Of a stretch of 64,000 nt of DNA, positions 33,550 through 62,664 are shown in pieces (position 1 is the stretch's first letter; each line of letters starts with the position of its first letter). This DNA comes from Eledone cirrhosa (taxonomy: Eukaryota). The stretch is taken from the NCBI GenBank assembly GCA_964016885.1, contig OZ024742.1, positions 185,752,001 to 185,816,000 on the forward strand. The letters are read 5' to 3'. Under the pieces are notes generated by a model, which did not search any database, was not told the origin of the DNA, and saw nothing but the letters and a program-made list of their open reading frames with translations. The position numbers and the translations under genes are program-made.

Positions 33550-36500
33550 TCATAATCATCATCATCATTTTACGTCCGCTTTTTCCTGCTTGCAAGGGTT
33601 GGACGGGTCCTATTCAGCACAACATCTGTCCACTTGTCACGGTCCTTCGTCATATCCTGCATGAGTTTCAGTGATCTGAGGTCTGCTCTCACCACCTCCG
33701 CCCATATTTTTCGTAGTCTACTTCTACTGCGTCTTCCTTCTACTGAGATTTCTTGGCAATTCTTTACCCAGCGGTCATCCTCCATGCGCATCACATGTCT
33801 ATACCATCTCAGCCTTCTCTCCTGCACACCACAACTTATCCCTCTTATACCCAGTTTCTTTCTCAACTCATCTATGCTTGGTCGTTCACGCACATTGGCA
33901 TTGCACATCCAACGGAGCATGCTTGCTTCATTTCTCTCCAGCCGTCGCATAGCCTCTGCGGTTGCTGCCCATGTCTCATTACCATGCAGCATCGTGCATC
34001 TCACACAGGCATCATATTACCGTCCTTTCATACGCAGGGAGAAACCCTTCTTTGTCAACAGGGGAAGCAGCTCCCTAAACTTCTTCCAACCCGTCCTTAT
34101 TCTAGATACTATGGCCTCGGAACACCCCTCTCCCATGATAATCTGATCACCTAGGTACCGGAAGCTATCAACCACTTCTATAGAAACCACCTGCATTGGA
34201 AAAATGTGTCTATCACTGCGATTACTACTGCCAACTTTCCCTGTACATCTACTGCATACATAGTTTTCCCTACCTGTTTGTTTGCCTGCTAACCCACTAC
34301 ATCTCTTGTGTACCCAAGATCTGCATTGCGTACATTTTATGGAATTTATGACAGTTCCTTTCCTACATATCGAACATGGCCATTTCCCTGATGGAATCAG
34401 AGTATCGTCCTCTCTTCTACTCATCAACACTTTTGTCTCGGCTATGTTCACTCTCAGACCTCTTGATTCCAACTGCTGTTTCCATAGCCAGAATTTATTC
34501 TCTAGCTCCCCTACTGATTCTGCTATAAGAACCAGATCATCAGCATAGAGAAGTTCCCATGGGCATCCAGTCAAAACTCCTCTGTTATAGCTTGGAGGAC
34601 TATAATGAACAAGAGCGGGCTGAGGACCGAACCCTGATGTACACCTACTTGTATCTGGAAATCCTCACTAACCTCCATTCATCCTCTCACTTTACTGACA
34701 GCACCCCTGTACATAGCTTGCACTGTCCTCACAAGCTATTCCTCTACACCTAGTTTCTTTAGGGACCACCAGATGACAGATCGGGGTACCCTATCAAAGG
34801 CCTTCTCTAGGTCAACAAAAGTATAGTGGCTTATTCTTCTCTAAGAACCTCTCTTGCAGTTGCCTCACTAAGAAGAGGGCATCTGTTGTACTTTTCCGAG
34901 GCACAAAACCAAACTGCATCTCATCTAATTTGACCCTTTCTCTAATCAGTTGCGCTAATATTCTCTCTGCCACTTTCATAACCTGATCCATCAGCTTTAT
35001 GCCCCTATAATTACTCCTCTCCAGAGTATCCTCTTTACCTTTGTAGCAATTTATGAGAATACTGCTGCACCAGTCTTTGGGTATGACACCACCAGATATA
35101 GCTTGATTGATGATGCGTGCAACCAGTTTAGTGTCTACTTCTCCTGATGCCTTCAGCATCTCAGCAACTATCCCCGACGGTCCAGCAGCCTTACCATTCT
35201 TCATTTCCTTAATTTCCTCTTGTACCCTATATTCGTCAATCACAATAGCTGGTCCCTCTGTTGGGTCTACTGGGGGTAATTTCTCTCTCTCCCATTCGTT
35301 CTCCACATTTATCAGTCTCTCATAATGACATTTCCAAGCCTCCTTTTCTTTATCATTCGTGACACTAAGTACACCGGCATGATTCCGGACACACTTATCT
35401 TCAACAACATCCTGATTTGCACTGACACACTGCCTTGCAATGCGGAACACCGCACGTATCTGATCTTCATGTGGCAGAACATTGGTAAACCTCCTACTCT
35501 CAGCCTCCCTGCGTGCTAAGTACACCTGACGTCTAGCTTCTCTCTTAGCGGCTGTGTATCCTTCTCTACTCCCACCATTTTTCCAAGCCTTCCATGCCAG
35601 TATTTTGTCTCTAATGGCCCTATCTACCGTGCTGTTCCACCACCAGGTCACTCTCTGTCTGGTTGAAGCTCTGCCCCAACCACAAGTTTCTTCAGTAGCC
35701 TGCAGTAAGTTGTCACGCAAGAAATTCCAGTTATCATCTATGTCATACAACTCTAAATCGTCTTCTTTTTCGTCATACACATCTTGAAGGGCTTTGCTAA
35801 ATTTATATTTTAATGAAAGGTCTCTTAGCTGCCAGACCTTTCTTTTCCACACCTTCCTGTTTGTCTCATTCTTTCTCTTACTGAGATGTCACTAACGACT
35901 AACCTATACTGTGGGGTACATTCTTCCCCGGGGTATGCCTTAGTATTTGACACCATCTGTCTGTCTCGCTGTCTAACTAGTAAGAAGTCAATCTGGCTTA
36001 TGTGCTCGCCTGATTTGTAGGTTATTAAGTGGTTGGTAGGCTTCTGGAAGTTAGTGTTGCAAATGGTTAGTGCATTTGCATCACAAAATTCAACAAGCCT
36101 TACTCCTTCTTCATTTCTTGAGGCGTAACCGTGTCCACCATGTACCCCAGTGTATCCATCCTGGAGCTGTCCAACATGACCATTGAAGTCCCCTGCTAGC
36201 ATAACGATGTCCCTGTCCTCTGTCATTGAGGCTGTTTGTAAAAGTTGCTCATAAAAGCAGTCTTTCTCTTCTTTACCTAGGCCTAGGAGATGATTGTCGG
36301 TAGTCTCTTGCCTACAACTAATCTAAGCTTAATTATTCTATTACTAACTCTAACTACCTCTATTGTCTTATTGATCCATCTCTCAGTCAGTAATATGCCC
36401 ACCCCGCCTAACCCATCATCATTATCCACCCAGAAAAGTTATAACTACGATGTTTGCCTGCGATTCGTCTTGCAGAGGCGCCTCTCCATCTCACCTCTTG

Positions 36501-36870
36501 TACACAGCACACATCCACATGCCTTCTTTCCAGCATCTCCGCTATCTCACCAGATCTACCTGTTAAAGTGCCAACATTATGTGTGGCAACTCTGAGATGC
36601 GACGTCTCGTTCTTTTTCCTGTTGTGCGATTGCTTGATGACGGTCGTGGGGTTCTCACACATAGCCTCACTAGCCACCCCACTACCGTGCGCAGTCCTAA
36701 CATGTTTAGTGTTATTGCTGTTTACGCAGTTGTTGTGCGATTGCTTGATGACGGTCGGGGGCTTCTCGCACATGGCTGCACCAGTCACCCCACTACCGTG
36801 CGCAGCCCTAACATGGTTAGTGTTATTGCTGTTTACGCAGTTGTTGCAAATCTCATTCGTTGTGCTCATA
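33548..36870 (-). mobile_element. RTE-clade LINE, near full length, frameshifted (APE endonuclease and RT)
   Basis: APE motifs THNVGTL, CCVQEVRW, GDFNGHVG and QIDF; RT motifs NYRGIKL, QFGF and LLYADDLVL; C-terminal RRLRWY; (TGA)n 3' tail at 33548-33568. Confidence 0.92.
36621..36845. repeat. 111-bp direct duplication in the RTE 5' region
   Basis: GTTGTGCGATTGCTTGATGACGGTCG at 36621 and 36732; in-frame 37-aa duplication in ORF 36408..36869. Confidence 0.9.
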
Positions 36871-36984
36871 GTTTTTGGCAGTAGTATATATACTGTTTGG
36901 ATGCCCTTTCTAACACCAGCACCACTTTACAGCATGGACTAGGTGCTTTTATTCGTGCCACCAGTACTAAGCATATCATATATA

Positions 36985-38073: not shown

Positions 38074-38161
<88 letters not shown>

Positions 38162-38167
<6 letters not shown>

Positions 38168-38529
38168 AAATCAAAAGATGATTAAAAGAGTTCCATGTAT
38201 TTTATTATGCGCATTTCAAAAACAAATATCATCATGGGATGATATTTGCGTTCTCATCAGATAAAATAGGGAGACATGATATGAAGCTTAAAAAACACTT
38301 GCGAGCAGTGAAGTGTTAAATCAACATGTCTCCCTATTTTATCTGACGAGAACGCAAATATCATCCTATGATGATATTTGTTTTTGAAATGCGCATAATA
38401 AAATACATGGAACTCTTTTAACCATCTTTTGATTTTATATTATTTATACTCCAGTCCTATAAACTGTTGAGTGCTACTTATCCGATATTTGCATTGCTTT
38501 ATTGTGCTACAATAAAACTCACCTCCTAC

Positions 38530-38587: not shown

Positions 38588-38591
<4 letters not shown>

Positions 38592-38905
38592 AGTATGTAT
38601 GTATGTATACGTACATACATATATGTATACAGACGTACAGTAGTATGTATATATATACATACATGCACACATATATATATGCACGTATCGGTTTACCGAA
38701 CATTTATTATAATGCTCGGTTTGTTTGCATTATAATAAATGTTCGGTAAACCGATACGTGCATATATATGTGTGCATGTATGTATATATACATACTACTG
38801 TACGTATGTATACATATATGTATGTACGTATACATACATACATTCTTACATTTAAGTAAGTGCCGTACTAAGAGTGAGAAATGAAATTTCGTTTCATTCT
38901 ATTCC

Positions 38906-38910
<5 letters not shown>
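38588..38910. mobile_element. Truncated foldback of the 450-bp retrozyme-like family (ribozyme not included)
   Basis: Matches 51963-52090 and 52580-52772; same 3' end CTATTCCATT followed by (TA)n. Confidence 0.85.
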
Positions 38911-38978: not shown

Positions 38979-39420
38979 AAACTTTTCGCTTTACATGGCT
39001 GAATACAATAAATGTAATCTGAGTTTTTCGAATATTAATAACATTCGATTCGTATGCAATTATGCAAACAAGCCTCAATTTTATAGCCATGTCAGTAGAA
39101 TGAACCCTTCATTCTTACTCTTGTGTTGGCATGTGAACAGCCAGTCTGCTAATATGCAAATCAGGCCGATCAGTGACTGTGTATTTTTAAAAATAGCATA
39201 TATTTTCACTAGCTCTGACAATTTGGCAGGTGAACAGTGAGCTGTACTGATGAAGGGTGATACCCAGAAACATTAGTGTCTGCAGTTCTGTTCACATGCC
39301 AACACAAGAGCAAGAATGAAGGGTTCATTCTACTGACATGGCTATAAAATTGAGGCTTGTTTGCATAATTGCAAACGAATCGAATATTATTATTAATATT
39401 CGAAAAACTCAGATTACATT

Positions 39421-39454: not shown

Positions 39455-39460
<6 letters not shown>

Positions 39461-40684
39461 TAAAATAACAGATTAAAGTTTAAGCAAAGAATCGCTGCTT
39501 TCACCCTTAACGGGATCTTCTGAAACTAACAAAGTCAATCTGTAAACGCAGAAGTTAATATTTCAAAAACCGTTGCAACCGGAGGAAGACAGGAAGACGA
39601 TACTTTGGTTCGTGGAAACGTTCCCTGGCAAAGAACTGGAAAAAACGAATATAATACGTCATTATTTGGAGCGGTGAAAAACAATTCGACATCAATAATT
39701 ACTACTCCTCCATCACTTTACCACTTCTCCTTAGAGCTATCAATTTCGCTAAAACACTCACAGTGGTTAAGGATTTCGAAGTTGATGTCATCCTCAATGC
39801 CCGTAAGTCGGTGATTAATTTCGACGACTCTATTTGGATTAAAAAATCTAATAGTACCCCATTCGACGTGAGTATGGGCGCCAGCGATTCTGCGGAGGTT
39901 ACTGATCTTATCGGCCTTTTCCTTCTTTTCTCTATCAAGGACGAATTCCCCAACGCGGGCGGCGGTTTGTACCGTGATGGTGGTCTTTTGACCATGACTA
40001 AGTGCGGTCCACGTGCTTGCGACAGGTTCAGAAAAGAACTCACAGCTTCTTTAAAGGCTTCAACCTCTCTATACAGGTTGAGGCCAACCTCTCGGTCGTT
40101 AATTACCTGGACATTACCCTCAATTTATTGAATGGCATGTATTACCCGTATAGAAAGTCGAATGATACGCTTAATTACATAAGTAAGCATTCCAACCATC
40201 CTGCCAGCATAACCAAGAACCTGGTAAGAAACGTTTCTTTGAGGCTTTCCCGTCTATCTACTAACGAGCATATTTTCAACGACCATTCCACATATTACAA
40301 TGAAGCTCTTGCTCGGAGTGAATTTGTCGATAAGGAGCATATACAGAGTACGAGAATAGACCTAGAAGAAATAGATCCCGACGCATTATATGGTATAACC
40401 CACCATATAATATGGAGGTGGCCACACCTTTAGCTAAGATATTTCTATCCCTTATTACGAAGCATTTTCCCCCTACAAACGGTTTTTGAAATATTCACTT
40501 CTGCGTTTACAGATTGACTTTGTTAGTTTCAGAAGATCCCATTAAGGGTGAAAGCAGCGATTCTTTGCTTAAACTTTAATCTATTATTTTAATAAATTTT
40601 TGCTCTACGGTTCTTATATATTTGATATATATTTATCCTTATCGAGCCCTCTTTGGATTTTAGTCTTCAAATTTTTATTATTAC
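39455..40684 (+). mobile_element. Penelope-like retroelement (Naiad-like RT), truncated and internally deleted, with inverted pLTRs
   Basis: RT motifs FDINNYYSSIT, FDVSMGASDSAEVTDLIGLFLL, GLYRDGGL and NYLDITLNL; thumb YISKHSNHP; pLTR at 40478-40684 with an inverted copy at 39455-39574; no GIY-YIG seen. Confidence 0.85.
40510..40582 (+). ncRNA. Type I hammerhead with CAGAAGA (U4A) core
   Basis: AGATTGA..AGTTT-CAGAAGA-T-CCC-ATTAA-GGG-T-GAAA-GCA..TGC-TT-AAACT-TTAATCT; further copies at 39469-39542(-), 33275-33325(-) and 33329-33379(+). Confidence 0.65.
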
Positions 40685-40701
40685 TATATATATATATATA
40701 T

Positions 40702-51920: not shown

Positions 51921-52169
51921 TATTCGTACGTCCGTCAATAATACACAGATATATATATATATAAGTATGTATGTATATATACGTACATACATATATGTAT
52001 ACAGACGTACAGTAGTATGTATATATATACACACAAATATATATGCACGTATCGGCCTACCGAACATTTATTATAATGCTCGGTTTGTTTGTTTGTAAAC
52101 AAACAAACAGCCCGAATTATGCCGTACAGTGTTTAGGCAACCACGTCACCTTTTTGTTCAACACTGACA

Positions 52170-52228
52170 CAGGAACGATGTACTAGTTTCAAGCTCATTA
52201 GCTATCGTCAGCATCGTATACCTTCCTG
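52170..52228 (-). ncRNA. Type I hammerhead ribozyme, copy 1
   Basis: Reverse complement of the motif at 52432-52490, with a small change in loop II. Confidence 0.85.
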
Positions 52229-52431
52229 CCAGATGGTTGAACGTCTGAAAGTATATACTTTCCTTATGCATATTAACGGCTGAGCAGCCTAATTTGCATA
52301 TCGAGTGAGTTCAGTCGGCCGGGCGCACCGAAAACGATAAATGGAATAGAATGAAACGATATACAAATTAGGCTTCTCAGCCGTTAATATGCATAAGGAA
52401 AGTATATACTTTCAGACGTTCAACCATCTGG

Positions 52432-52490
52432 CAGGAAGGTATACGATGCTGACGATAGCTAATAAGCTTGAAACTAGTACATCGTTCCTG
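52432..52490 (+). ncRNA. Type I hammerhead ribozyme, copy 2
   Basis: CAGGAA..ACGATG-CTGACGA-T-AGCT-AATA-AGCT-T-GAAAC-TA-GTA-CATCGT-TCCTG; predicted cleavage after 52479. Confidence 0.88.
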
Positions 52491-52881
52491 TGTCAGTGTT
52501 GAAAAAAAAGGTGACGTGGTTGCCTAAACACTGTACGGCGTAATTCGGGCTGTTTGTTTGTTTACAAACAAACAAACCGAGCATTATAATAAATGTTCGG
52601 TAAACCGATACGTGCGTATATATATATATATGTGTGTACATGTATGTTTGTATATACATACTACTGTACGTCTGTATACATATATGTATATACGTATACA
52701 TACATACTTACATTTAAGTAAGTGCCGTACTAAGAGTGAGAAATGAAATTTCGTTTCATTCTATTCCATTTATCGTTTTCGGTGCACCCGGCCGACTGAA
52801 CTCACTCGATATGTAAATTAGGCTGCTCAGCCGTTAATATGCATAAGGAAAGTATATACTTTCAGACGTTCAACCATCTGG

Positions 52882-52940
52882 CAGGAAGGTATACGATGCT
52901 GACGATAGCTAATAAGCTTGAAACTAGTACATCGTTCCTG
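52882..52940 (+). ncRNA. Type I hammerhead ribozyme, copy 3
   Basis: Identical to copy 2 and 450 bp downstream; predicted cleavage after 52929. Confidence 0.88.
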
Positions 52941-53330
52941 TGTCAGTGTTGAACAAAAAGGTGACGTGGTTGCCTAAACACTGTACGGCGTAATTCGGGC
53001 TGTTTGTTTGTTTACAAACAAACAAACCGAGCATTATAATAAATGTTCAGTAAACCGATACGTGCATATATATATGTGTGTACATGTATGTATATATATA
53101 TACAAACTACTGTACGTCTGTATACATATATGTATGTACGTATACATACATACATACTTATATATATATATATATATATGTGTGTACATGTATGTATATA
53201 TATACATACTACTGTACGTCTGTATACACATATGTATGTACGTATACATACATACTTACATTTAAGTAAGTGCCGTACTAAGAGTGAGAAATGAAATTTC
53301 GTTTGATTCTATTCCATTTATATATATATA

Positions 53331-53464
<134 letters not shown>

Positions 53465-54535
53465 TGACTTCTACAGGACTAGAACTGTTTGATTCGAAGC
53501 CATTTCTATATTAAACATTATACACATTCTATGTATTGAGTACTTTACTTACTGTAGTTCCCCCCGATTGAACCCGGGATACACACACACACACACACAC
53601 ACACACAAATATATATTTCTATGAAAGAAATCTTCTGTGCTCTGACCTGGAGGGTGATAGGCTCCCCCAGGTTTAAATGAATACAATATCCACCCTACGA
53701 CTCCATCAGGATTTATGCGCCAGTGAAATGGCATATTAACAGTTGTCTTCGCCAACGTTATATACTTCCGTATCGTCCTTGTTTTTGCTGCTATTACATA
53801 CGAGACTATCTCCAGACAGGAACAGCAACTAAGAGCCATAAGAATCAATATATTTTGGAGAGGTATTGTAGACAATGTTAAGAATTCTACATCTGCTCAT
53901 TAGAATACATAAGAAATAGTTGTGAAGTAGATTGGCAGAATTGGCACAACGTCGGATATAATGTCATTGCACTGTATTTGCTCTGGCTCTTTATATACTG
54001 AGTTCAAATCCTGCCGAGATCATCTTTGCCTAAAACAAAGTACCAGTCAAGTACTGTGGTTTGATTTAATCAACTTTGACTTTCCCCCAAATTTGTTGGC
54101 TTATTGACTAAAATAAAAATCGATATTTATGAGACAGTTTGAATGAAACTGTGGTTAACAATAAAACATATTCTAACATTCTCCTGTCTGCCATTATATT
54201 TTAATTTGTTAATCAAAGCGTGGCAGTTTAAGTGATTGGAGATCGAATCTATTAAGCCCCTCCTTCTCCATCCCTACCTTCCTCTTTTCACAATACGGTA
54301 TCATACACATTGATCGGATTTCTGCCGAAATTTTCTCACTGACCCGGCCAATGCTATATCTACAAAAATTACGTCATCTACTTCTCTCTCTCCCTCTCTC
54401 TCCCTCTCTCTCCCCCTCTCTCTAACTCCCTCTCTTTCTCTGTCTGTTTATCTATCTCCATATCTATCTGTCTGTCTATCTACCTGTCTATCTCTTTGTC
54501 TATCTATTTCTATATCTTCCTCCCTCTCGCTTGCC

Positions 54536-57448: not shown

Positions 57449-60400
57449 ATCCCCAATAGGGGGAGGCGCCACAAATGGGTTGTTTAATACCCCGTAGATA
57501 GAACAACCCTCAACTTCAGGAGCATGTTGTGCAAGTGCTCCTTTCTTCCTTTTGCTCTCTTCTTCAACCTACAGGTTTATATACAGAGAAGGCCCAATCA
57601 CTCGGGCCATTTTTGCCACATTCACCCACCTTTCAATAAATTTACTGGGGTGCAGTGCCTCTCTCTCCACTCCGATTCTCCTTCTAAAGAGGTACCTAAA
57701 GAAGGGAATGAGTTGTTGTCCGGAGAGAAAGACATCTGTCCTCAGTCCTCTCAATCTCGTCCACCATATAACCTCTTTCACCATAGCCACTATACAGAGG
57801 AAAACCGCTTCTCTTTCGTTTTTGAAAGAGGCTGGCGGTTTGATCCTAACTATGGACTCGGCAGTCAACTGGATTTGTCCCATACGCGACAGAAGTTGTT
57901 CTGCATAGTTCCACTCCCGGGCAGTATACAATTGCGTGCAAGACGGTTTCAATGTCCTGCTCGCATCTTGGACACGTCCTCTTGGAAGGATCCCTGCCGG
58001 GGCGTCCGTGCCTGTAGATCTTATCTCGAACGGGTAGAGCACCTCGGTAGCACTGCCAGGCCAGGGACCTCTGGAAGTTGTCCATAGGTCCCGGGCAGAA
58101 AGTCCTACCGAACAGCCTGGTGAACTCGTCGTCTTCGACGCCTAGAGTCTCCCCAAGAATGTCGAAGTGGAGTCTCCACTGATTGCTGTGCCCGCTTGAC
58201 AGAGGACTGTGAGCGCCTGGGCGCATTCAATGTGCCAGGCGCCCATCTTCTTCGGTCTGTCTTCGCTTGACCCAGGACTGCAGCTCTGTCAGCGAGACGA
58301 GCTGTGGGAAGGCCTGTCTCACAAACGGTGCCCACACGGGTTGGTCGGTGAGGAATACCTGAAGATGCCGTAGCCTCAGCGCATGTTTGCGCATAATTAG
58401 CCAGGGCATGCCCAGCCTTCCGTTGGAAGGGTGTTGACAGCAGACGGATCTCCTCACCAGTGGAGCCTGCTTCTTCCACAGGAACTGGAAGAGCATGCGT
58501 TCCATCTTAGTGAGGTATTCACGGGGACAAGGCACGACAGTCAAGCGGTAGTAGATGACGGACGCTATGAAAGTGTTCGCCACCTCCGCTCGACCTTTCA
58601 AAGTCAGTTTGCACTCTGCCCACTTCTGGGTGAGCGCAAATACCTTGGCCATGACCTCGTTCCAGTTTTTCTCCACCTGGAGGTCTGGACCGAACCAGAC
58701 CCCGAGCAATTTCACCGGTCCTTCCGTCCAGCATCCGACGACGCTGTCGGACGGCATCCGTTTGCCTCTCCACGTTCCGAGTTGCAAACCGACAGACTTG
58801 TTCGGGTTCAGTTTTTCTCCTGTGAACCTTTCGTATTCGTGTAGTACGTTGCCGATTACCTCGATTTCCGAGGTTTTCGACACCATTACCGTCACGTCGT
58901 CGGCATAAGCCGACGCCGCTTTTCACAGTCTCGGTTCTAAAGGGATGCCCTGCAAAAGCTCTAGCTTCCGCAGTAGTGGCTCTAGAGTCAATACGTACAG
59001 AATGGAGGAGAGAGGGCATCCCTGTCGAATGGAACGCGTGATTGCGAACGGCTCCGATAGGTAGCCGTTCACCTTGACCTTCGAGCAGATGTTGGTGTGC
59101 ATCGCCTTGATCCAGCCTCTGAAAACGGGACCGAAACCGGCCGCCTTGAGAACCGCTTCTAAGTATCGATGGTCGACCCTATCGAATGCCTTAGACTGAT
59201 CTAAATGGATCAGAGCCCCACCGAAGCCGGGTTTACACCCCACCCTCTCTATGATGTATCGCATGAGGTGGAGGTTGTCGTGTATGGACCGGTCGGGATT
59301 GCACACGTTTGCGCTTTCCCTACCAGGTTTTCGACGACAAGCGCCAGCCTCGTTGCTAGCTCCTTGGCCAAAATCTTTAACTCTGTGTTGAGCAGAGTTA
59401 TGGGCCTGAAATTGTTTATTTCGTGACCCTTGTTCTCGTCTTTCCTGATCAGCATTACTACGCCCTTGCCTGCAGAACTGGGAATTGTCCCGTTCTGCTG
59501 CCAATTGCAATAGACGGCTTCGAGGACGCCAGAGAACAAGTCCGGCATGCCTATGTAAAACTCATAGAGTAGACCATCTAGACCGGGTGATTTGCGTTTC
59601 CGGCAGCGGCCCAGAGCTTCCCGTATCTCAGTGGCTGTGATCGGTCTTTCGTAGAATTCAGCGTCCATGCTCGAGAGACGCGGCAGGCTGTCGAGGTATG
59701 AACCAAAGTCCATTGCCCCGTTCGGTGCACCGTTGTTCTGCTCAAACAGTCGCACAAAGTGCCGCTGAAATGCCGCGCACATCTGCCTGGGGTCAAGTAG
59801 CACACGTCCGTTTTGGTCTTTCAAAGACCGAATCGTGGACTTGTTGCCACTTTTCGCTTCCGCCACTCGTGCCCAGCTAACAGCTTTTGCTCCCTCGTTT
59901 CCTAGAGCACGTGATTTACTTCTGACCACGCAGCCTTCGTGTTTCGCGTCGAAGAACTGGTCCAGTGCCGTACTCTAGCTACGTTTCCACTCCTAAGCTC
60001 CTCTTCTACTTTGGTTACTAGTTTTGTTTCTGATTTGCTTTTCTCTAAAGTTAATTCTCTTCTAAACCCTATCGATTCTACTCTAATTGCTCTCTTGAGA
60101 GAGTACCACCATCTATTGTTGACGATGGCTCCCGTCAACTCTTGCTTAACTAATCTAATTATCCGTTCACTGTAGGCTTTTCATGCTGGCAATGACACGT
60201 TCAGCTTCCAGTATCCGGGTCCTTGTCTATGTATTCTATCACGGTTGACTATGCAGATGACTAGTTTGTGATCTGAATAGGCAACCATGTGCATTTGTGG
60301 ACAGCTTAACATCTTCTTGTCTTTTTCTCTAATGAAAAACCTATCTACATACGATCTAGATGTCCCGCTGCGGTTTGCCCACGTCCACTGTGGTGCAGTC

Positions 60401-60745
60401 GGGAAATCTATCTAGTCGATATCTATCGGCCAGTTGGAATTAGCCGATTAGATTTTTGAGGCTGTTGCACCCCGCTCTACTGGGACATGCTCCCCAATAG
60501 TCCCATCATGCATCTAGGATACCATTCCAGTGCCCCACTAAAAGCAAGGAGCGAGACGTTCCCAGATAAGACTCCAGACGCTGAAAGAAGTCTGGCCGCG
60601 ATTGTGACTGCCCGGTCGGGGCATAAACAGCCACCAGTCTGAAGGCTCCACCTCCAATACTGTTCACGTCTATTACTACCAGTCTACCCTCCGGGTCTAA
60701 GGGTACTTGCTGTACTTCGAGATCCAGGTTTTCCGAAACAGAGCG
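57449..60745 (-). mobile_element. Tx1/L1-clade LINE copy 1 (partial APE, RT, C-terminal CCHC), frameshifted, 5' truncated
   Basis: VAVYAP, GHWN, KSPGLDG, NFRPITLLN, LDQSKAFDRV, RQGCPLS, YADD and CPRC..ETVLHAIVYC. Confidence 0.92.
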
Positions 60746-60795
60746 ATAAGATAGATAGATAGGTAAGTTGGTAGATGGATAGATAGATAGATAGA

Positions 60796-62110
60796 TTTCT
60801 TTATTAGCCACAAGGGCGCAACAAGAAAGGGGACAATACAAAGACATGCCGGGGATTTTACATACAGTCGTGTAAAAAATATAAAAACAAACAATTTCAA
60901 CAATCGAAATCCCCAATAGGGGGGAGGCGCCACAAATGGGTTGTTTAATACCCCGTCGATAGAACAACCCTCAACTCAAGGAGCGTGTTGTGCAAGTGCT
61001 CCTTTCTTCCTTTTGCTCTCTTCCTCAACCTACAGGCTTATAAACAGAGAAGGCCCAATCACTCGGGCCATTTTCGCTTCATTCACCCACCTTTCAGTAA
61101 ATTTACTGGGGTGCAGTGCCTCTCTCTCCACCCTGATTCTCCTTCTAAAGTGATACTTAAAGAATGGAATCAATTGTTGTCCGGAGAGAAAGGCATCTGT
61201 CCTCAGTCCTCTCAACCTCGTCCACCATATAACTTCTTTCACCATAGCCACCGTACAGAGGAAAACCGCCTCTCTTTCGTTTTTGAAAGAGTCTGGCGGT
61301 TTGATCCTTACTATGGACTCGGCAGTCAACTGGATTTGTCCCATACGCGACAGCAGTTGTTCTGCATAGTTCCACAGGTCGCTTACGCTCGGGCAGTGTA
61401 CAATTGCGTGCAGAACTGTTTCAATGTCCTGCGCACATCTTGGACACGTCCTCTTGGAAGGATCCCTGCCAGGGCGTCCGTGCCTGTAGATCTTGTCACG
61501 AACCGGTAGAGCTCCTCGGTAGCACTGCCAGGCCAGGGACCTCTGGAAGTTTTCCATAGGTCCCGGGCGGAAAGTCCTACCAAACATACTGGTGAGCTCA
61601 TCGTCTTCGACGCCCAGAGTCTCTCCGAGCACGTCGTCGCCCTTGTAACGTACAATCCCTCTATAGAATGTCGAAGTGGAGTCTCCACTGATTGCTGCGC
61701 CCGCTTGCCAGAGGACTGTGAGCGCCTGAGCGCATTCAATGTGCCAGGCGCCCATCGTTTTCGGTCTTTTCTTCACCCAGGACTGCAGCTCCGTTAGCGA
61801 GACGAGCTGTGGGAAAGCCTGTCTCACAAACGGTGCCCACACCGGTTGGGGGTCGGTGAGGAATACCTGGAGATGCCGCAGCCTCAGCACATGTTTGCGC
61901 ATCATCAGCCACGGCATTCCCAGCCCTCCGTTGGAAGGGTGCTGACAGCAGACGGATCTCCTCACCAGCGGAGCCTGCTTCTTCCACAGAAACTGGAAGA
62001 GCATGCGTTCCATCTTGGCGAGGTGTTCACGGGGACAAGGCACGACAGTCAAGCGGTAGTAGATGACGGACGCTATGAAAGTGTTCGCCACCTCCGCTCG
62101 ACCTTTCAAG
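60796..62110 (-). mobile_element. Tx1/L1-clade LINE copy 2, 5' truncated, intact 3' ORF and 3' UTR, flanked by (GATA)n
   Basis: Open 359-aa ORF 61030..62109 is highly similar to copy 1; 3' end AATAAAGAAA-(TCTA)n; (GATA)n at 60748-60796 and 62111-62134. Confidence 0.92.
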
Positions 62111-62664
62111 GATAGATAGATAGATAGATAGATATTTAGACCAAAATTTCAAACATTTATACTTTGACGATAGTTCCCAAATAAATAATTCTCTTTTTTT
62201 TTTTTTGTTCGAAACTCAACGCCTGTGGGAAAACGGGAAAACTTTCTTATGTTGTCTGAAAGCTGATATTCATATCTAGTTCCCACTAAAAACTATTGCA
62301 TTGACCATGTTGGAACCAGACTTAACTCTATTATAACTTTTACTAACTTTATTTCTAAACAGTATCGAAGACAACGTTCGTGTTTAGATTATTTTGAAAG
62401 ACTACCTGCAACATATCCTCCAACATCAGCTGGACATTGCGACGTATCCTTTGTTACTCTAAAGATTAATATTCAACAAAGACAACGCAACTCTCGTGGT
62501 GTAAATGTAAACGTCTTTTTTCTTTTGTTTAACACTCATTGATCGCTATCTACCTCATAACATGTCACATCAAGATCATAATGTATGTGTCAGATGAGGT
62601 ATTACAAAGGCAGTCATGCTTTACAAATATCAAACAATGCATCGATACCTTTTTCTATATAAGG

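What the first reader, a model, noticed from the sequence alone, without database searches (positions are those of the whole stretch)
51963..53320. 450-nt hammerhead multimer: candidate retrozyme copied from a circular RNA
Seen: three near-identical minimal type I hammerheads, two in direct repeat exactly 450 bp apart and one inverted; no ORF; several internal hairpins. Both arms read through the point where the insertion ends (CTATTCCATT|TATCG), and the ends are not at the predicted cleavage site. A second truncated insertion with the same 3' end lies at 38588-38910. Known: animal non-LTR retrozymes and PLE pLTRs carry such ribozymes with palindromic stem III loops, and retrozymes give circular RNAs. 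Inference: cleavage at 52479 and 52929 would release a 450-nt monomer that circularises and is reverse transcribed in trans by a PLE into (TA)n.
Basis: partly seen in the sequence, partly recalled or inferred. Interest (0 to 1): 0.9.

Follow-up and report, generated by a model that had tools for sequence, protein, structure and literature searches.

The report
Hammerhead retrozyme family with Penelope footprints
This is one copy of a non-coding repeat whose hammerhead-ribozyme motif occurs over 23,000 times in this animal genome; its insertions have the ends of Penelope-like retrotransposons, so it is likely a parasitic RNA, probably circular, copied into (TA)n repeats by their enzymes, and a new member of a known kind.

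Summary
Observation confirmed: three type I hammerhead motifs, two 450 bp apart and one inverted, no conserved ORF. The locus belongs to a young, genome-wide family (23,085 exact 34-nt ribozyme cores; units 419-538 nt; arrays to about 7.5 units), most likely a non-LTR retrozyme, i.e. a non-autonomous Penelope-like element (PLE). Copies are not circularly permuted: 3' ends fall at two fixed sites 61 nt apart, next to (TA)n (136 of 150). In head-to-head two-armed insertions one arm uses each site (43 of 46); coding PLEs of the same genome do likewise (9 of 9). This ties the family to PLE machinery and suggests priming from both nicked strands. Stems I and II covary across relatives down to 60% identity. 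5' ends do not pile up at the cleavage site (4 of 90 passages, 3.2 expected), so a cut linear monomer is not the template; a circle is likely, an uncut multimer is not excluded. No coding PLE with this unit as pLTR was found, and the partner is unresolved. Cleavage and circles are untested. New member of a known kind.

The parts
51950..51961 (.). left (TA)n target flank
   Evidence: sequence
51962..52359 (-). inverted arm; 3' end at the short site (CATACTTA), 5' end at unit position about 272; 0.9 unit
52175..52217 (-). type I hammerhead motif 3; predicted cut between 52181 and 52180
52357..52359 (.). inversion junction, CGA shared by both arms (BLAST overlap 6 nt with one mismatch)
52357..53160 (+). 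direct arm, 1.8 units, running to a short site
52443..52485 (+). type I hammerhead motif 1 (stem I ACGATG/CATCGT, core 52449-52455, U-U plus 4-bp stem II, palindromic stem III); predicted cut after 52479
52480..52929 (+). 450-nt cut-to-cut monomer, predicted multi-branched fold
52711..52771 (+). 61-nt tail between the short and the long 3' site, read through here
52893..52935 (+). type I hammerhead motif 2; predicted cut after 52929
53161..53319 (+). terminal piece (unit positions about 138-292) ending at the long site; makes a 102-nt duplication with the arm before it
53320..53402 (.). right (TA)n target flank
38590..38909 (.). second, separate two-armed insertion of the family in (TA)n: left arm short end, right arm long end, no ribozyme

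Best explanation
The element is one insertion of a high-copy, non-coding, hammerhead-bearing repeat family with Penelope-type ends, likely a non-LTR retrozyme copied in trans by a Penelope-like element's reverse transcriptase and endonuclease from a probably circular RNA. Steps: (1) shown: tandem units of about 420-540 nt, each with a type I hammerhead motif; (2) inferred: transcripts self-cleave, as dimers through the palindromic stem III, and the monomer is ligated to a circle; (3) inferred from the ends: a PLE protein nicks both strands of a (TA)n tract, and each 3' end primes cDNA at an internal start site, one at unit position 231 and the other at 292; (4) shown in DNA: both arms run on past the cleavage site for variable lengths, often more than one unit; (5) inferred: the two cDNAs meet head to head and join through short complementarity, giving the inverted arm; if only one arm survives, a single 5'-truncated copy results; (6) some long arrays likely grew further at the DNA level. 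In this window the extra 102-nt piece likely arose when the long-start cDNA, having copied the unit's own (TA)n, re-primed at the short site; a nested second insertion is the alternative. Odds: PLE-mobilised non-autonomous family about 0.9; one start site per nicked strand about 0.7; circle as main template about 0.6.
For: Copy number 23,085 exact cores, control 0. Of 97 loci analysed: 3' ends at two sites; 136 of 150 such ends followed by TA-rich DNA against 257 of 1940 random positions. Two-armed insertions: 61, of which 46 have both ends at a canonical site; 43 of 46 are one short plus one long (p 2e-10 against 0.5). Same pattern in 9 of 9 two-armed insertions of three coding PLE families of this genome. 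Arm junctions overlap by 1 nt or more in 27 of 46; the longest overlaps sit on internal palindromes. The two arms of one insertion share variants (e.g. L020, L117, L119, L126, L128) and units differ less within than between insertions in all five reference groups. In loci picked by a motif downstream of the cut, 4 of 90 passages stop within 10 nt of the cleavage site, 3.2 expected at uniform hazard. Hammerhead stems: 7 of 13 pairs change on both sides in 9 hand-picked relatives, covariation score above 500 of 500 shuffles and above slid controls; a 60%-identical 466-nt relative keeps a similar branched fold and has the canonical G-C at the base of stem II. The same U-U variant cleaves, better as a dimer, in axolotl retrozymes that form circles (PMC7229834). 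Two RT start sites defining the tail, nicking and extension of both strands and a predicted dimer were shown for an anole PLE (PMC11167929). Run X4, which skips introns of a ribosomal protein gene and so is an RNA library, holds contigs on the unit: presence only.
Against: No cleavage or circle was observed. For the anole PLE, ribozyme cleavage was not needed in vitro and unprocessed RNA was the main template. Variants carried by only part of an array (L128: 6 of 9 units; L107: many in 2 of 5) show that long arrays are not all single rolling-circle products. 3 of 46 classifiable insertions break the one-each rule, one being this window's element (short-short unless the terminal piece is counted); 15 of 61 had an arm ending elsewhere; 15 of 46 junctions have a gap and 4 are blunt. 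The window's own three copies share no private variant. No partner matches in sequence: 1 of 9 tail comparisons reached p 0.047 uncorrected. The monomeric hammerhead does not fold better than shuffles (z -0.7). The 120 of 150 arms that cross a cleavage site is inflated, since 60 loci were picked by queries spanning it. Loci L031-L130 all come from the first 25 Mb of one contig.
Confidence: 0.65

Rival explanations
1. Same PLE-driven insertion, but the template is an uncut linear transcript of a genomic tandem array; the hammerhead trims or regulates the RNA and circles, if any, are not the template.
For: Unprocessed RNA was the dominant substrate for the anole PLE and no RNA-seq reads ended at its cut. 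Tandem arrays of 5-9 units exist as possible sources. One X4 contig bridges the cut site (record 12), which fits uncut or re-ligated RNA alike. Only 1 of 9 Xenopus dimers cleaved in vitro.
Against: None of 46 single-arm 5' flanks is shared with another at the junction, as copying off the 5' end of a linear source might give (small sample). The ribozyme is kept with compensatory changes down to 60% identity; if it cuts, arms crossing the cut need re-ligation.
Confidence: 0.25
2. The copies are 5'-truncated ends (pLTRs) of an autonomous PLE whose coding body was not sampled.
For: All end features are those of PLE pLTRs; retrozymes in Xenopus are often close to pLTRs. Protein searches of the genome score only the best candidates.
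Against: Of 168 tail copies in 97 loci, 86 read into the unit's own spacer, 79 end in (TA)n and 3 in other short flanks; none enters an ORF. 1 of 48 single-arm 5' flanks matches a PLE protein, on the opposite strand. The four coding families inspected have other ends; family copies near them are nested in their TA flanks.
Confidence: 0.06
3. A DNA-level repeat (satellite or foldback element) spread by recombination or repair, with the hammerhead as a relic.
For: Partial sharing of variants inside long arrays; strong self-complementarity.
Against: Fixed 3' and variable 5' ends, (TA)n targeting, the same two-site pattern as coding retroelements, and stem covariation.
Confidence: 0.04

Closest known systems
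Metazoan non-LTR retrozymes (coral, mussel, axolotl; PMC7229834), especially axolotl Rtz_353 with HHR_Amex2
   Same: Non-coding tandem units of a few hundred bp, one type I hammerhead per unit, U-U at the base of stem II, 2-bp stem III, highly paired monomer, very high copy number, PLEs in the same genome.
   Different: Circles and cleavage are shown there and untested here; unrelated sequence as far as examined (not aligned); here dispersed 1-2-unit, often two-armed insertions in (TA)n with two fixed internal 3' ends, which the sections I read do not describe for retrozymes.
Vertebrate non-LTR retrozymes as non-autonomous PLE derivatives (bioRxiv 10.64898/2026.07.22.740005)
   Same: Same class and same proposed partner.
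   Different: That link rests on co-occurrence and pLTR similarity; here no pLTR homologue was found, and the link rests on insertion-end anatomy. No mollusc was among their 35 species.
EN+ Penelope-like elements (Neptune, Hydra, Naiad, Penelope/Poseidon; PMC8557442, PMC3846280, PMC11167929)
   Same: Partial tandems, inverted 5'-truncated copy, optional tail at one end, (TA)n preference, hammerhead upstream of two RT start sites.
   Different: No ORF; tail 61 nt against the 30-40 bp reported; the one-long-one-short pairing is counted here, whereas the passages read say only that the tail is optional or often at one end.
Non-autonomous Chlamys PLEs such as MRC1 (PMC8557442, passage)
   Same: Non-coding PLE derivatives with multicopy head-to-tail insertions.
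   Different: Green algal, mostly without hammerheads, and similar to their autonomous partner at the 3' end.

Membership tests
Non-LTR retrozyme | [quoted passage not shown] | tested here: met
   42 cut-to-cut units of 419-538 nt; window unit 450 nt
Non-LTR retrozyme | No protein coding | tested here: met
   Longest ATG frames 75, 51 and 112 low-complexity residues, differing among subfamilies
Non-LTR retrozyme | Conserved hammerhead fold | tested here: met
   7 of 13 pairs with changes on both sides; core kept except one of 9 rows
Non-LTR retrozyme | Highly self-paired monomer | tested here: met
   -143 kcal/mol, z -6.75; partly due to TA/TG palindromes
Non-LTR retrozyme | Transcribed | tested here: inconclusive
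   RNA-type run X4 holds 75 contigs on the unit; strand, level and independence from host transcripts unknown
Non-LTR retrozyme | Self-cleavage and circular monomeric RNA | not testable with these tools
   Only assembled contigs were available; needs bench work
PLE-type insertion (works like) | Fixed 3' ends with optional tail, variable 5' truncation | tested here: met
   Two sites 61 nt apart; 87 5' ends spread over the unit
PLE-type insertion (works like) | Inverted 5'-truncated copy head to head | tested here: met
   61 two-armed insertions in 97 loci
PLE-type insertion (works like) | (TA)n target as in Neptune, Hydra, Naiad | tested here: met
   136 of 150 ends against 257 of 1940 background
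PLE-type insertion (works like) | Target-site duplication | tested here: inconclusive
   Cannot be read inside (TA)n (flanks)
Autonomous PLE (member) | RT plus GIY-YIG ORF between pLTRs | tested here: not met
   0 of 168 tail copies continue into an ORF; no sense PLE-protein match in 48 5' flanks
Derivative of a named coding PLE | Sequence similarity to the partner's pLTR or tail | tested here: not met
   Four coding families compared; other families may be unsampled
Minimal PLE hammerhead (min-HHR of PMC4209133) | No stem III, long stem II, short stem I | tested here: not met
   6-bp stem I, 4-bp stem II, 2-bp stem III

The most novel reading that the evidence does not exclude
An animal retrozyme caught with its mobiliser's fingerprint: a dimeric PLE protein binds one ribozyme-made RNA circle, each subunit primes from one nicked strand of (TA)n at its own start site (231 or 292), and the two rolling cDNAs meet head to head. 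This would explain the inverted pLTR and the one-sided tail of all EN+ PLEs by one rule, and give a 450-nt substrate with intact candidate enzymes in the same genome.
Probability: 0.35. Interest if true: 0.7.

Novelty: new member of a known kind. Interest (0 to 1): 0.42.

Why it matters
Which enzyme moves animal retrozymes, whether circles are the template, and how PLEs make inverted repeats with a tail on one side are open questions. This family carries PLE end anatomy with no coding sequence, in thousands of young copies, and the one-long-one-short pairing holds for it and for three coding PLE families of the same genome. That gives a sharp prediction for the existing in vitro PLE assay. The class itself is known, so the gain is a good test system and a counted rule, not a new kind of element.

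Tried and rejected
Rfam: no match at gathering score in the window. Sequencing runs: no RNA holder listed; X4 had no recorded kind and was shown to be spliced only. Contig depths show more of the window's subfamily in X4 than in the DNA run X1, but summed contig depth is a poor measure and I do not use it; contig ends near the cut occur in the DNA run too. X5 and X6 hold a few related contigs and nothing on the control gene; not used. Circular permutation of ends: not seen. Pile-up of 5' ends at the cut: not seen (2 of 87 within 5 nt). Partner search: five protein searches of the genome gave a 900-aa family with older relatives, a 713-aa Hydra-type family and two Neptune-type families (775 and 796 aa); none has the unit as pLTR. 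The resemblance of the tail to the 796-aa family's read-through (p 0.047 for subfamily A, 0.43 and 0.56 for B and C) is not significant over 9 comparisons; the stretch used for the 900-aa family in that test began just after its short end. The 775-aa family is closest in tail length (about 60) and also has U-U under stem II, but shows no sequence likeness (p 0.85-0.97). Shared 5' flanks among single-armed copies: none in 46. Three look-ups of earlier scan findings returned nothing. Literature searches for retrozyme plus cephalopod, and hammerhead plus octopus plus Penelope, listed no description of this family; Repbase and Dfam could not be searched, so it may be catalogued there.

Full report
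Observation. The stretch 51962-53319 lies between two (TA)n tracts and consists of an inverted arm (51962-52359, minus strand), a direct arm (52357-53160) and a terminal piece (53161-53319). Hammerhead cores start at 52449 and 52899 on plus and 52211 on minus; the direct unit is exactly 450 nt from predicted cut to predicted cut (52480-52929). Stem I is ACGATG/CATCGT and is predicted to extend past a bulge, stem II is 4 bp on a U-U mismatch, stem III is 2 bp with a UA loop in a palindrome that can pair between two molecules (-6.8 kcal/mol). Rfam finds nothing. A second insertion at 38590-38909 has two short arms and no ribozyme.

It is a family. The 3.0-Gb genome holds 16,809 exact copies of a 24-mer across the cut, 15,279 of a 24-mer 100 nt downstream and 23,085 of a 34-mer core, with 0 for reversed controls. 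These count motifs, not insertions. I analysed 97 non-redundant loci of the 130 fetched for the family (30 best BLAST matches, the rest the first matches on contig 1). Units are 419-538 nt in three subfamilies, with older relatives down to 60% identity. The host is likely an octopus: the nearest named relative of one of its PLE proteins is from Octopus bimaculoides (61%); this is an inference.

Ends. 3' ends cluster at two sites, unit positions 231 (CATACTTA) and 292 (CCATTT), and 136 of 150 are followed by TA-rich DNA, against 257 of 1940 random positions. 5' ends are spread over the unit. So copies are not circular permutations. After dropping two segmental duplicates there are 61 head-to-head two-armed insertions; 46 have both ends at a canonical site and 43 of these pair one short with one long end, 2 are long-long and 1, this window's element, is short-short unless its terminal piece is counted (p 2e-10). 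52 single arms end long (31), short (18) or elsewhere (3). Junction overlap is 1-10 nt in 21, over 10 in 6, nil in 4, and a gap in 15 (BLAST boundaries, approximate).

Coding PLEs behave alike. Protein searches found young intact families: a 900-aa RT plus GIY-YIG family, a 713-aa family with the DKT and CxCx5C motifs that PMC8557442 gives for Hydra (no Pfam match), and two with a Neptune-type cysteine linker, 775 and 796 aa. Clade names rest on motifs; no tree was built. All four end in (TA)n at two sites, and 9 of 9 two-armed insertions among the loci fetched use one each (Hydra-type 2, 900-aa 3, 775-aa 4). None carries the 450-nt unit as pLTR. Of 168 tail copies of our family, 86 read into its own spacer, 79 end in (TA)n, 3 end otherwise; 1 of 48 5' flanks matches a PLE protein, in antisense. 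The 775-aa family is the best candidate partner by tail length and by its U-U hammerhead, without sequence support.

The ribozyme looks selected. Nine hand-picked relatives, chosen by core and spacing and not by pairing of stems I and II, keep 90% of cells paired; 7 of 13 pairs change on both sides. Related sequences can beat the shuffle control, but slid controls are far lower. Two relatives have the canonical G-C under stem II. The axolotl HHR_Amex2 has the same U-U and cleaves better as a dimer.

Template. In loci picked by the downstream motif, 74 arms make 90 passages up to a cleavage site and 4 stop within 10 nt, 3.2 being expected by chance. A cut linear monomer is therefore not the usual template. 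Either the RNA is uncut or it is re-ligated. Conservation of the ribozyme, shared variants between the two arms and among units of an array and the absence of shared 5' flanks (0 among 46) favour a circle; variants in only part of long arrays and the anole result that cleavage is dispensable in vitro keep the uncut multimer alive. Run X4 skips three introns of a ribosomal protein L3 gene, where DNA run X1 does not, so it is an RNA library of this organism; it has 75 contigs on the unit, one bridging the cut. That shows presence in RNA only.

Mechanism. Shown in DNA: family, two start sites, (TA)n target, two-armed anatomy, read-through of the cut. Inferred: dimer cleavage, circularisation, nicking of both strands by a PLE, one start site per strand, joining by short complementarity. 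PMC11167929 supplies the biochemistry for a PLE: both strands nicked and extended, two internal start sites bounding the tail, predicted dimer; it reports no difference in start site between strands, which is compatible with per-event pairing on a symmetric target.

Comparison and novelty. The class is described: PMC7229834 (read: results and discussion, parts 2-4 of 6) and bioRxiv 10.64898/2026.07.22.740005 (read: parts 1-3 of 5, abstract to discussion). PMC4209133 and PMC11167929: parts 1-2 of 4 read. PMC8557442 and PMC3846280: passages only; they state that the tail is optional or often on one end, and the latter explains head-to-head inversions by self-priming on antisense RNA. Searches listed no account of this family or of a counted one-each rule; most subscription journals, Repbase and Dfam were out of reach and no supplements were read, so family lists there may bear on novelty. 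Verdict: a real, young retrozyme-type family with PLE footprints; new member of a known kind; interest 0.42.

Noticed in passing
window 1-29656: Satellite array of alternating 64/66-bp units, about 457 copies, 92% matches.
   Followed up: no
window 38155-38448: Inverted repeat (124-nt arms, 97%) between TA tracts with a hammerhead-like motif on each strand (38343 +, 38260 -; long stem II, GCGC stem III); similar motifs recur elsewhere (L204). Likely another small two-armed PLE-type element.
   Followed up: partly
window 38980-39420: Palindromic element with a hammerhead-like core at 39247, related to sequence in L177.
   Followed up: no
window 39455-40690: Broken Hydra-type PLE with an inverted short-ended arm at left and a long end at right, both in (TA)n: same one-each pattern, read by eye.
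   Followed up: partly
window 53465-53580: Fragment resembling a further small hammerhead family seen as palindromic insertions in L022, L058 and L111.
   Followed up: no
L113:751 onward; L046:2850; L213: Another tandem family of about 310 nt with a hammerhead of the same U-U plus 4-bp stem II design but different sequence; the genome seems to hold many retrozyme-type families.
   Followed up: partly
L226:4517-6600 and L227-L232, L237: The 796-aa Neptune-type family has a 1-2-kb TG/TA-rich 3' region, and my descriptor found no hammerhead belonging to it; it and the 775-aa family have a coding-like region upstream of the RT frame.
   Followed up: partly
L172:2098-2135: The 900-aa PLE has a variant hammerhead-like motif with core CCGAAGA and no stem III beyond an AATT palindrome; an older copy has CTGAAGA (L230).
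   Followed up: no
L112:1912-8567: Two different two-armed insertions, each present twice in direct repeat: local DNA duplication after insertion.
   Followed up: partly
window 33556-36926 and 57488-62148 (- strand): Broken LINE-like endonuclease/RT frames; by eye RTE-like and L1/Tx1-like (labels recalled, not tested).
   Followed up: no
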